Origin: a virus
Taxonomy: Duplodnaviria; Heunggongvirae; Uroviricota; Caudoviricetes
Virus record (IMG/VR): IMGVR_UViG_3300028956_000044
Direction: 5' to 3' (one strand)
Length of the DNA stretch: 9,055 nucleotides
The notes under the pieces were generated by a model. It did no database searches, was not told the DNA's origin, and saw nothing but the letters and a program-made list of their open reading frames with translations. Below, piece after piece: positions 3,075 through 3,831 of this stretch (its first letter is position 1; every line of letters starts with the position of its first letter). Made by a program: the position numbers and the translations under genes.

Positions 3075-3215
3075 TAGATAACCAACGAAGCTAAGGTTGG
3101 TAATTAAGGAGTTCTCCACGGGTGAGGTGGAGTGCGTGCGCCGGACACGGGTGAGCATCCGGCACTGACAGTTTACTGAAAGGATATTTCCCTGAAAAGT
3201 CAGACCATAACGCGA

Positions 3216-3280
3216 AAGCGCACGGCGAGGTAGCTGGTTCATAGATAGCCTGTCGTTAAATTTTCGTCGACCGTGCGCTT
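3216..3280 (+). other. RNA stem candidate: perfect 10-bp inverted repeat AAGCGCACGG / CCGTGCGCTT with 45-nt loop
   Basis: Read directly: 3216-3225 is the reverse complement of 3271-3280. Lies in the ORF-free ydfC-dicF spacer. Confidence 0.4.
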
Positions 3281-3353
3281 CCGGTTGTGGCAATCAGCGA
3301 AATGGCGCGGCGGTAAGTATGGCGGGGTTATTCCTTCCCCCGTTGAGGACACC

Positions 3354-3415: not shown

Positions 3416-3473
3416 TTTCTGGTGACGTTTGGCGGTATCAGTTTTACTCCGTGACTGCTCTGCCGCCCTTTTT
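3416..3473 (+). ncRNA. dicF: DicF small regulatory RNA (ftsZ-targeting sRNA of Qin-type prophages)
   Basis: The 53 nt at 3416-3468 match, to my recollection base for base, the E. coli DicF sequence. They end in a GC-rich hairpin plus a TTTTT run at 3469-3473. Position between ydfC and dicB is syntenic with K-12 Qin. Confidence 0.85.
3431..3473 (+). terminator. intrinsic terminator forming the DicF 3' end
   Basis: GGCGG (3431-3435) pairs with CCGCC (3463-3467), with an inner CAG/CTG pair, followed by CTTTTT. Confidence 0.75.
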
Positions 3474-3481
3474 AAAGTGAA

Positions 3482-3621
3482 TTTTGTGATGCGGTGAATG
3501 CGGCTAAGCGCACGCGGAACAGTTAAAACCAAAAACAGTGTTATGGGTGGATTCTCTGTATCCGGCGTTAATTGTTAACTGGTTAACGTCACCTGGAGGC
3601 ACCAGGCACCGCATCACAAAA
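3482..3621 (+). other. perfect 15-bp long-range inverted repeat bracketing the dicF-dicB spacer
   Basis: 3482-3496 TTTTGTGATGCGGTG is the exact reverse complement of 3607-3621 CACCGCATCACAAAA. Arm A starts 9 nt after the DicF T-run; arm B ends 21 nt before the dicB ATG. Confidence 0.5.
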
Positions 3622-3642
3622 CTCATTGTTGAGGGCGCGATA

Positions 3643-3831
3643 ATGAAAACGTTATTACCAAACGTTAATACGTCTGAAGGTTGTTTTGAAATTGGTGTCA
3701 CTATCAGTAATCCTGTATTTACTGAAGATGCCATTAACAAAAGAAAACACGAACGGGAGTTATTAAATAAAGTATGCATTGTTTCAATGCTGGCCCGTTT
3801 ACGTCTGATGCCAAAAGGATGTGCACAATGA
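3643..3831 (+). CDS. dicB: cell-division inhibitor DicB (62 aa)
   Basis: ATG at 3643 preceded by GAGGG (3631-3635). The 62-aa product MKTLLPNVNTSEGCFEIGVTISNPVF matches my recollection of DicB, and it sits about 170 nt downstream of DicF as in K-12. The track's 97-aa version is an in-frame GTG extension with no RBS. Confidence 0.85.
   Translation: MKTLLPNVNTSEGCFEIGVTISNPVFTEDAINKRKHERELLNKVCIVSMLARLRLMPKGCAQ

What the first reader, a model, noticed from the sequence alone, without database searches (positions are those of the whole stretch)
3482..3621. Perfect 15-bp inverted repeat enclosing the whole dicF-dicB spacer
15/15 complementarity over a 110-nt span is unlikely by chance. In read-through RNA it would form a long duplex starting 9 nt after the DicF terminator and ending 21 nt before the dicB start, a candidate RNase III substrate setting the dicB mRNA 5' end. 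Alternatively the two arms could be paired protein-binding sites; each arm contains GATGCGGTG.
Basis: seen in the sequence. Interest (0 to 1): 0.5.

Follow-up and report, generated by a model that had tools for sequence, protein, structure and literature searches.

The report
RNase III stem closing a prophage RNA
The inverted repeat between dicF and dicB is real: it is the closing stem of a conserved prophage RNA related to STnc100, lengthened to the size RNase III cuts, and the literature already reports an RNase III cut there (the 72-nt DicF).

Summary
The 15/15 inverted repeat (3482-3496 / 3607-3621) is confirmed and is not chance: 0 of 300 shuffles reach 15.

It is an RNA helix on the + strand. 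Across 53 distinct homologues, 17 of its 20 pairs show compensatory changes. G-U wobbles outnumber A-C by 80 to 19.

With its extension (3476-3480 / 3623-3627) the helix is 20 bp here and 21 contiguous bp in K-12. It is 21-22 bp, with different sequences, in Klebsiella, Citrobacter and Lelliottia copies.

Two papers citing Faubladier 1990 say RNase III gives DicF an alternative 72-nt form. That 3' end maps to about 3487, inside the 5' arm.

They form a multi-helix RNA that matches Rfam STnc100 below threshold (38.8 bits against 47). It recurs upstream of kilR, kil, rha and terB genes and in P1-like phages. Outside lambdoid early operons its closing stem is only 4-10 bp.

I infer that RNase III excises a ~130-nt RNA and creates the dicB mRNA 5' end near 3618. 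Neither is shown. The protein-binding-site alternative is rejected.

The parts
3416..3468 (+). DicF sRNA (53-nt form), followed by its terminator T-run at 3469-3473
   Evidence: Rfam RF00039 at 76.7 bits, 3417-3468. The K-12 dicF annotation 1649382-1649434 aligns to window 3416-3468.
3476..3496 (+). 5' strand of closing helix P1: outer extension 3476-3480, A-C mismatch at 3481, perfect core 3482-3496. The literature-derived RNase III cut lies after about 3487 (3' end of the 72-nt DicF).
   Evidence: for structure. for covariation: 17 of 20 pairs have double changes. for the 72-nt DicF made by RNase III; the mapping to 3487 is my arithmetic.
3497..3499 (+). Invariant unpaired AAU junction after GGUG
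   Evidence: Invariant columns in alignment A1. It is also present in nearly all of the 117 sequences that were fished out with a 3' motif only.
3500..3515 (+). Hairpin P2 (GCGGC UAAGC GC-A-CGC), the signature of the subtype found here
   Evidence: Minimum-free-energy fold. RNAalifold recovers it, and 98.9% of cells are paired.
3516..3563 (+). Variable arm P3 (base GGAACAG / CUGU-AUCC), the hypervariable centre of the element
   Evidence: Fold only. The region is swapped between variants. Anecdotal covariation at its base (GGA/UCC in the window, GGC/GCC in Rac).
3564..3590 (+). Hairpin P4, a 10-bp stem with the conserved loop UUGUUAACUGG
   Evidence: All 7 consensus pairs show compensatory changes.
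3592..3606 (+). Hairpin P5 (CCUGG AGGCA CCAGG), directly abutting the P1 3' strand
   Evidence: U-A to G-C double change in 21 of 53 sequences and 100% of cells paired. CCAAG/CUUGG in Arsenophonus copies.
3607..3627 (+). 3' strand of closing helix P1: core 3607-3621, mismatch at 3622, extension 3623-3627. Predicted partner RNase III cut between 3617 and 3618.
   Evidence: The cut position is inferred from the 2-nt 3' overhang rule of RNase III and is not measured.
3623..3646 (+). dicB leader hairpin (UCAUUGUUG / CGAUAAUGA). The SD GAGGG (3631-3635) sits in its loop and the AUG (3643-3645) in its stem. It competes with the P1 extension.
   Evidence: Minimum-free-energy fold of 3470-3650. Prediction only.
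3643..3831 (+). dicB coding sequence (62 aa)
   Evidence: Pfam DicB PF05358, E 5e-40. Annotated as dicB in identical genomes.

Best explanation
The inverted repeat is the closing helix (P1) of a structured RNA of about 145 nt encoded on the + strand between dicF and dicB. This RNA is a divergent relative of the prophage sRNA family STnc100/PasD.

In lambdoid early-left operons, P1 has been lengthened to about two helical turns (20-22 bp), the size that E. coli RNase III cuts. When transcription reads through the DicF terminator, the helix forms and RNase III cleaves it near its middle.

The cut on the 5' strand (about 3487/3488) is the published origin of the 72-nt DicF.

By inference, the staggered cut on the 3' strand (about 3617/3618) releases a ~130-nt RNA closed by a 9-bp stem. 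It also leaves dicB mRNA with a 25-nt leader (3618-3642).

Shown here: the helix, its covariation, its strand, its conserved length, and its family relationship. Taken from the literature: RNase III dependence of the 72-nt end. Inferred: the second cut, accumulation or function of the excised RNA, and any effect on dicB expression.
For: Helix and statistics:
- dG -64.6 kcal/mol, z -4.9.
- 0 of 300 shuffles reach 15 nt.

Covariation on 53 distinct homologues:
- 92.1% of cells are paired, against 33-43% when the partners are slid.
- The covariation score is 0.318, against 0.03-0.08 slid. 0 of 500 shuffles reach it.
- In P1, 17 of 20 pairs carry double changes.

Strand:
- G-U/U-G 80 cells against A-C/C-A 19 in P1.
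- K-12 carries two independent C-to-U changes that give U-G and G-U.
- The model scores 172.6 bits on + and 29.8 on -.

Length conservation with sequence divergence:
- K-12 has 21 contiguous bp, Klebsiella 22 and 21, Citrobacter 21, Lelliottia 22, and the Rac type 10 + bulge + 12.
- P1 is 7-10 bp in P1/P7/D6 and other subtype-A copies, and 4-9 bp (one of 12) in 54 STnc100 copies.

Family:
- Rfam STnc100 matches 3480-3620 at 38.8 bits, E 3e-7, and its outer helix is the repeat.
- All subtype-A copies score 35-43 bits.
- My model R1 finds Rfam-grade STnc100 copies at 40-60 bits.

The element occurs without dicF or dicB.

RNase III:
- 72-nt DicF.
- dicA-dicF-dicB intergenic regions are listed as RNase III substrates.
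- Gordon 2017 Table S1 lists a site at 1649470 (window ~3504) with 26 reads in the rnc mutant against 0 in wild type.
Against: - I could not read the primary paper (Faubladier 1990). The position 3487 is my arithmetic from '72 nt' and carries an uncertainty of a few nt, though any value within 3476-3496 lies in the helix.
- PMC10448788 (2023) discusses only the RNase III site upstream of DicF and does not mention this one.
- The Gordon 2017 signal is weak (26 reads) and of low positional resolution.
- No data show the 3'-arm cut, a stable ~130-nt species, or Hfq binding. K-12 RIL-seq tables have no dicF-dicB entry.
- The window copy has an A-C mismatch in the helix.
- The match to STnc100 is below Rfam's gathering score.
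Confidence: 0.72

Rival explanations
1. The element is mainly a cis-acting 5'-leader device for the toxic gene downstream (dicB, kilR, kil, terB). The long helix and RNase III cut tune translation or stability of that mRNA, as in the lambda N leader. The excised piece is a by-product with no function of its own.
For: - In subtype A the element ends 33-46 nt upstream of a start codon with an SD in most copies.
- The downstream genes are DicB, KilR, a Lambda_Kil-like protein, Rha, TerB and small membrane peptides.
- In K-12 the base of the helix pairs the DicF U-tract with the dicB SD region.
- A leader hairpin covering the AUG competes with the P1 extension.
Against: - The same core occurs as terminated, stand-alone or tandem copies with no ORF directly behind. 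37 of 57 STnc100-type copies are followed by a terminator-like hairpin.
- In one type, a DicF-like sRNA follows the element rather than a gene.
- PasD, said in a 2026 preprint to share ancestry with STnc100, is an Hfq-dependent sRNA seen on Northern blots.
- The two readings are not mutually exclusive.
Confidence: 0.2
2. The long helix is only a structural clamp that insulates folding of the module inside a long mRNA. It is not cleaved in vivo.
For: Long closing stems commonly stabilise multi-branch RNAs. The window copy has a mismatch, and some copies have bulges.
Against: - The literature reports an RNase III-made DicF 3' end that maps into the helix.
- The length is held at 20-22 bp in several genera rather than being merely long.
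- Family members elsewhere fold with only 4-10 bp.
Confidence: 0.05
3. The two arms are paired DNA binding sites for a protein (operator-like palindrome halves).
For: Each arm carries GATGCGGTG on opposite strands.
Against: - Variants change both arms in compensating fashion to quite different sequences.
- Single changes are C-to-U transitions that keep G-U pairing on the + strand only (80 G-U against 19 A-C cells). This breaks DNA symmetry but not the RNA helix.
- The motif has no further copies in the window.
Confidence: 0.02
4. Chance inverted repeat without function.
For: None beyond the small size of the repeat.
Against: 0 of 300 shuffles reach 15 nt. There is strong covariation, and the fold z-score is -4.9.
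Confidence: 0.01

Closest known systems
RNase III processing site downstream of DicF that yields the 72-nt DicF (Faubladier, Cam & Bouche 1990, as cited in PMC5069750 and PMC9438474)
   Same: Same locus and, by position, the same helix. The 72-nt 3' end maps to about window 3487, in the 5' arm.
   Different: The sources I could read give only the RNA length. They do not describe the helix, its partner arm 110 nt away, the cut on the dicB side, or the nature of the enclosed RNA.
STnc100 (Rfam RF02076) and PasD1/PasD2, prophage-encoded Hfq-associated sRNAs of Salmonella, EHEC and EPEC
   Same: Same architecture:
- a closing helix xxxxGGUG/CACCxxxx;
- an AAU junction;
- internal hairpins;
- a 3' CACCNGGAGGCACCNGGCACC, with P5 abutting P1.
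Both are prophage-borne. The match has E 3e-7, and my model detects STnc100 copies in return.
   Different: - The score is below the gathering threshold (38.8 against 47).
- The P2 hairpin differs (GCGGCUAAGCGCACGC instead of CCCCCUGUGCGGAGGGG).
- P1 is 20-22 bp instead of 4-9 bp.
- It has no terminator of its own.
- It lies inside an early-left operon, upstream of a gene, rather than in the late region next to tRNAs, stx or esterase genes.
Processing stalks of rRNA precursors (long-range helices flanking 16S and 23S rRNA, cut by RNase III); my own knowledge
   Same: Works alike: sequences flanking a structured RNA pair over a long distance. RNase III cuts both strands of that stalk and so excises the structured RNA from a polycistronic transcript.
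   Different: No sequence relationship. The scale differs (110 nt enclosed against 1.5-2.9 kb). Excision here is inferred for the 3' strand.
RNase III hairpin in the phage lambda N leader and the R sites of T7 early mRNA; my own knowledge
   Same: An RNase III-cut structure within a phage early transcript, just upstream of an early gene's ribosome-binding site.
   Different: Those are simple, irregular hairpins with no known conserved multi-helix core. Homology was not tested here.

Membership tests
E. coli RNase III substrate | Double-stranded RNA helix of about two turns (about 20 bp or more) | tested here: met
   20 bp with one A-C mismatch in the window (3476-3496 / 3607-3627). 21 contiguous bp in K-12.
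E. coli RNase III substrate | RNase III-dependent cleavage within the helix, in vivo or in vitro | not testable with these tools
   Literature only. The 72-nt DicF made by RNase III maps to about 3487. There is a weak RNA-seq signal comparing rnc mutant and wild type at window ~3504. The primary paper is not held.
E. coli RNase III substrate | Helix maintained by selection (pairing and length conserved while sequence changes) | tested here: met
   17 of 20 pairs carry compensatory changes. The helix is 21-22 bp in Klebsiella, Citrobacter and Lelliottia copies with different outer sequences.
E. coli RNase III substrate | Absence of inhibitory base pairs (antideterminants) in the proximal and distal boxes | not tested
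   Not examined.
Rfam RF02076 STnc100 | Covariance-model score at or above the gathering score (47 bits) | tested here: not met
   38.8 bits for the window. Other subtype-A copies score 35-43 bits. True STnc100 copies score 57-165 bits.
Rfam RF02076 STnc100 | Consensus architecture: outer helix, internal hairpins, P5 hairpin CCNGG-AGGCA-CCNGG adjoining the 3' strand of the outer helix | tested here: met
   The cmscan alignment covers model positions 21-154 with the outer helix on the repeat. RNAalifold and pair counts agree.
Rfam RF02076 STnc100 | Prophage or phage location | tested here: met
   The window is a Qin-like lambdoid prophage. Homologues lie in phages and prophages.
Rfam RF02076 STnc100 | Discrete sRNA with its own 3' terminator; Hfq association | tested here: not met
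   No terminator follows the window copy, and dicB starts 21 nt after the helix. Only 7 of 51 subtype-A copies have a terminator-like site within 110 nt, against 37 of 57 subtype-B copies. Hfq binding is not testable here.
DicF (RF00039) | Lies within the DicF model | tested here: not met
   DicF ends at 3468 and the repeat starts at 3482. Only the 72-nt form would include part of the 5' arm.
tRNA or tRNA-like gene | Cloverleaf recognised by a tRNA detector | tested here: not met
   ARAGORN finds no tRNA or tmRNA in the window. Rfam tRNA models do not hit the element.

The most novel reading that the evidence does not exclude
The dicBF operon, and the homologous kilR/kil operons of Rac-like and Klebsiella prophages, may encode a third, overlooked product: a ~130-nt STnc100/PasD-class structured RNA (window ~3488-3617) cut out of the read-through transcript by RNase III.

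The class itself would then be a modular phage RNA whose invariant junction and loops point to a structure-dependent role, such as binding a protein or the ribosome, rather than a simple base-pairing sRNA.

Its ends would be defined in three interchangeable ways:
- its own terminator;
- an RNase III stalk;
- a tRNA-operon context.
Probability: 0.3. Interest if true: 0.6.

Novelty: new member of a known kind. Interest (0 to 1): 0.4.

Why it matters
The dicBF operon has been a model for prophage control of host cell division for 35 years. Its dicF-dicB interval is unannotated in K-12. The 2026 survey of PasD/STnc100 does not mention dicB, dicF or kilR.

Recognising the interval as an STnc100-like RNA with an RNase III-length stalk has three consequences:
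- It explains the old 72-nt DicF species structurally.
- It predicts the 5' end of dicB mRNA.
- It links three separately studied items (DicF/KilS modules, STnc100/PasD sRNAs, and P1's ban-operon RNAs) into one recurrent phage RNA cassette.

It also gives a direct handle for asking what this widespread family does: rnc dependence, arm mutations, and operon induction by Rem.

The RNase III cut itself is not new.

Tried and rejected
Ideas considered and rejected:
- **Mobile element (MITE-like).** This arose because blastn found the repeat-bounded piece without dicF or dicB. I rejected it. The copies sit at the same operon position in related prophages, the Rac copy is preceded by a DicF-like sRNA (KilS), and variation is confined to the P3 centre.
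- **tRNA-like gene.** The idea came from the 5-way junction, P5 stacked on P1, and neighbouring tRNA genes. ARAGORN and the Rfam tRNA models do not call it.
- **Retron msr/msd with a1/a2 repeats.** Considered from memory. No reverse transcriptase is annotated near identical loci. I did not pursue it.
- **Known upstream RNase III site as the same site.** It is not. The 190-nt DicF 5' end lies about 137 nt upstream of DicF, in a separate hairpin at 3205-3289.

Searches that led nowhere:
- **Genome-contig scan** with GTGAATGCGGCNNNGCGCNCG. It returned mostly chance matches in GC-rich, unrelated genomes. Only Enterobacterales hits passed the model.
- **Papers not held:** Faubladier 1990 and 1994, and Murashko 2017. 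The supplements of Altuvia 2018 are not held either.
- **Search for further mentions of '72-nt DicF'** added nothing.
- **K-12 RIL-seq tables** have no dicF-dicB species.

Full report
**Observation**

The window is a Qin-like lambdoid prophage of E. coli. Its order is repressor region, ydfC, dicF, dicB, ydfD, exonuclease, xis, int.
- DicF (Rfam RF00039, 76.7 bits) lies at 3417-3468, with its T-run at 3469-3473.
- dicB (Pfam DicB, E 5e-40) starts at 3643.

The repeat finder gives arms 3478-3496 and 3607-3625 with 110 nt between them. The perfect core is 3482-3496 / 3607-3621.

The repeat is the longest perfect inverted repeat with a spacer of 200 nt or less in the window. None of 300 dinucleotide shuffles reaches 15 nt; the maximum was 14, once, and the mode was 10.

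As RNA, 3470-3650 folds to -64.6 kcal/mol (z -4.9). The repeat closes a multi-branch structure. In a longer context the helix continues for five more pairs after one A-C mismatch (3476-3480 / 3623-3627).

**It is an RNA helix on the + strand, under selection**

I collected homologues from E. coli genomes, phage records, IMG/VR and one genome per species. I then aligned 53 distinct copies of the same subtype (A1).

RNAalifold recovers the closing helix and three internal hairpins. Counting pairs for the full structure gives:
- 92.1% of cells paired, against 33-43% when partners are slid by 1-3 columns;
- 26 of 37 pairs with changes on both sides;
- a covariation score of 0.318, against 0.03-0.08 when slid, with 0 of 500 shuffles reaching any observed measure.

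In the closing helix itself, 17 of 20 pairs have compensatory changes.

The strand is settled by wobble asymmetry:
- G-U/U-G make up 80 cells in P1, against 19 for A-C/C-A.
- The K-12 copy differs from the window by two independent C-to-U changes, one per arm. They turn C-G and G-C into U-G and G-U.
- All four combinations of these two changes occur among viral contigs.
- A covariance model built from A1 scores 172.6 bits on + and 29.8 on -.

This excludes paired DNA binding sites as the main explanation.

**The enclosed 110 nt are a conserved structured RNA, not a spacer**

A permissive Rfam scan matches 3480-3620 to RF02076 STnc100 at 38.8 bits (gathering score 47, E 3e-7). The model's outermost helix falls on the repeat.

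The same repeat-bounded element occurs without dicF or dicB in several contexts:
- upstream of kilR in Rac-type prophages and Stx phages;
- upstream of a Rha-family gene;
- upstream of small ORFs and a lambda-type Kil in a Klebsiella phage;
- in the tRNA-containing ban operon of P7 and D6-like phage-plasmids, upstream of terB/tciA.

All these copies score 35-43 bits against STnc100.

A scan of viral contigs with only the 3' motif returned more than 120 loci. Nearly all of them also carry the 5' GGUGAAU that the pattern did not require. They fall into two subtypes:
- Subtype A has P2 = GCGGCUAAGCGCACGC, as in the window.
- Subtype B has P2 = CCCCCUGUGCGGAGGGG and is STnc100 proper, scoring 57-165 bits in Rfam. 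It often occurs in tandem arrays beside phage tRNA genes.

My subtype-A model finds subtype B at 40-60 bits and finds further copies in Arsenophonus and Phlomobacter.

Window anatomy:
- P1 3482-3496 / 3607-3621, plus the extension;
- AAU junction at 3497-3499;
- P2 3500-3515;
- variable P3 3516-3563;
- P4 3564-3590;
- P5 3592-3606, abutting P1.

What the literature says about the family:
- STnc100 and PasD are prophage sRNAs said to share an ancestor (bioRxiv 10.64898/2026.05.13.724894).
- PasD is Hfq-dependent and has RIL-seq partners (PMC8550237).
- STnc100 lies 75 nt downstream of stx2 (PMC12370729).
- None of these papers mentions dicB, dicF or kilR.
- K-12 has no annotated feature between dicF and dicB.

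**The long helix is specific to lambdoid early operons and has RNase III length**

I measured P1 outward from the invariant GGUG/CACC.

| Group | P1 length |
|---|---|
| STnc100 proper (54 distinct copies) | 4-9 bp, mode 8, one of 12 |
| P1, P7, D6 and several other subtype-A copies | 7-10 bp |
| Window | 15 + mismatch + 5 |
| K-12 | 21 contiguous |
| Klebsiella copies | 22 and 21 |
| Citrobacter | 21 |
| Lelliottia | 22 |
| Rac type | 10 + one bulged A + 12 |

The long copies reach this length with different outer sequences. Two helical turns is the canonical size of E. coli RNase III substrates (established knowledge).

**RNase III cleavage here is already reported**

- PMC5069750 and PMC9438474, both citing Faubladier et al. 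[quoted passage not shown]
- A 2009 review lists the dicA-dicF-dicB intergenic regions among RNase III substrates.

K-12 dicF (1649382-1649434) aligns to window 3416-3468. A 72-nt RNA therefore ends at about 3487. That is in the middle of the helix, 9 nt from its inner end and 11 nt from its outer end.

Gordon et al. 2017 (Table S1) list a dicF-dicB site at 1649470 (window ~3504). It has 26 reads in the rnc mutant, 0 in both wild-type replicates, and is flagged as known. That signal is weak and coarse.

The 2023 study PMC10448788 deals only with a different RNase III site, the 5' end of the 190-nt precursor. That site lies in a separate hairpin at 3205-3289. I could not obtain the 1990 paper, so the nucleotide position is my derivation.

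**Mechanism**

The steps are marked as shown, taken from literature, or inferred.
- Shown here: read-through RNA can form a 20-21-bp P1 that closes a conserved core.
- From literature: RNase III cuts the 5' strand at about 3487/3488.
- Inferred: with the usual 2-nt 3' overhang, the partner cut is at 3617/3618.

That geometry would give three products:
- DicF with a 19-nt tail;
- a 130-nt RNA (3488-3617) closed by a 9-bp stem, the size of P1 in stand-alone family members;
- dicB mRNA with a 25-nt leader (3618-3642) containing the SD (3631-3635).

The same core is given defined ends by a terminator in subtype B (37 of 57 distinct copies, against 7 of 51 in subtype A). This fits the idea that the module is meant to be released as a discrete RNA.

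The main rival reading is a cis-acting leader device for the toxic gene downstream. It is supported by these points:
- the constant 33-46 nt spacing to a start codon;
- predicted pairing of the dicB SD region at the helix base in K-12;
- a leader hairpin over the AUG that competes with the P1 extension.

The two readings are compatible, and I cannot separate them computationally.

**Verdict**

The RNase III interpretation is right but largely known since 1990, and the protein-site alternative is rejected.

The added value is that the "spacer" is an unannotated, sub-threshold relative of STnc100/PasD. Its closing stem has been extended into an RNase III stalk in lambdoid early-left operons of several enterobacterial genera. 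The function of the conserved core remains unknown.

Noticed in passing
window 3205-3289 (+): A second irregular helix of about 22 bp (GCGCACGGCGA... / ...UCGACCGUGCGC; dG -37.4, z -2.6). The published RNase III-made 5' end of the 190-nt DicF precursor (about 137 nt upstream of DicF) falls on its 3' side, near 3279. DicF is therefore bracketed by two RNase III helices.
   Followed up: partly
L011 (K-12 Rac, NC_000913.3 1418229-1418510, minus strand); L001 2951-3170: Rac has the same layout: the sRNA KilS (which hits the Rfam DicF model at 39 bits), then the same STnc100-like element, then kilR. Gordon 2017 Table S1 lists an RNase III candidate at 1418510, 8 nt upstream of the annotated KilS 5' end. 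This suggests KilS may be processed like the 190-nt DicF.
   Followed up: partly
L024 2265-3380, L041 342-1038, L115 4349-5513 and 8357-8555, L129 4210-4887: Rfam-grade STnc100 copies occur in tandem arrays of 2-5. In L024, L041 and L129, and at the single copy in L013, they lie within about 1 kb of clusters of phage tRNA genes.
   Followed up: partly
L004 (phage P1) 1212-1313 and 2504-2620; L005 (P7) 2501-2616: The C1-controlled ban operon of P1-like phages carries an annotated 'dicF-like region', tRNA genes, and a short-stem copy of the same element upstream of tciA/terB. P1 itself keeps the 5' and 3' conserved parts but has a different interior.
   Followed up: partly
L121 5880-6111 (-), also the L012 type: In one group the short-stem element is followed, 68 nt later, by a DicF/KilS-like terminator hairpin (GGCGGUACCAG...CUGGUACCGCUCUUUUU). 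This is the reverse order of the dicF-element arrangement.
   Followed up: no
window 3538-3831 (+): A 97-aa GTG-started ORF is the in-frame upstream extension of dicB and begins inside P3 of the structured RNA. This fits an old report, whose title I saw only in a reference list (Cam et al. 1988), that DicB is translated from an internal in-phase start.
   Followed up: no
window 3590-3610 (+): P5 carries an SD-like GGAGG (UGGAGGCA) that is invariant in the alignment, though the search pattern required it. CACC occurs three times, so the 5' GGUG has alternative partners. Arsenophonus copies keep GAGG with a covarying stem (CCAAG/CUUGG).
   Followed up: no
L010 1936-2125 (K-12 dicF-dicB): In the K-12 fold the helix continues past a bulge. 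The DicF terminator tail UUUUUAA pairs with the dicB SD region UUGAGGA (7 bp, 3 of them wobbles). After an RNase III cut, the 72-nt DicF tail could stay annealed to the dicB leader.
   Followed up: no
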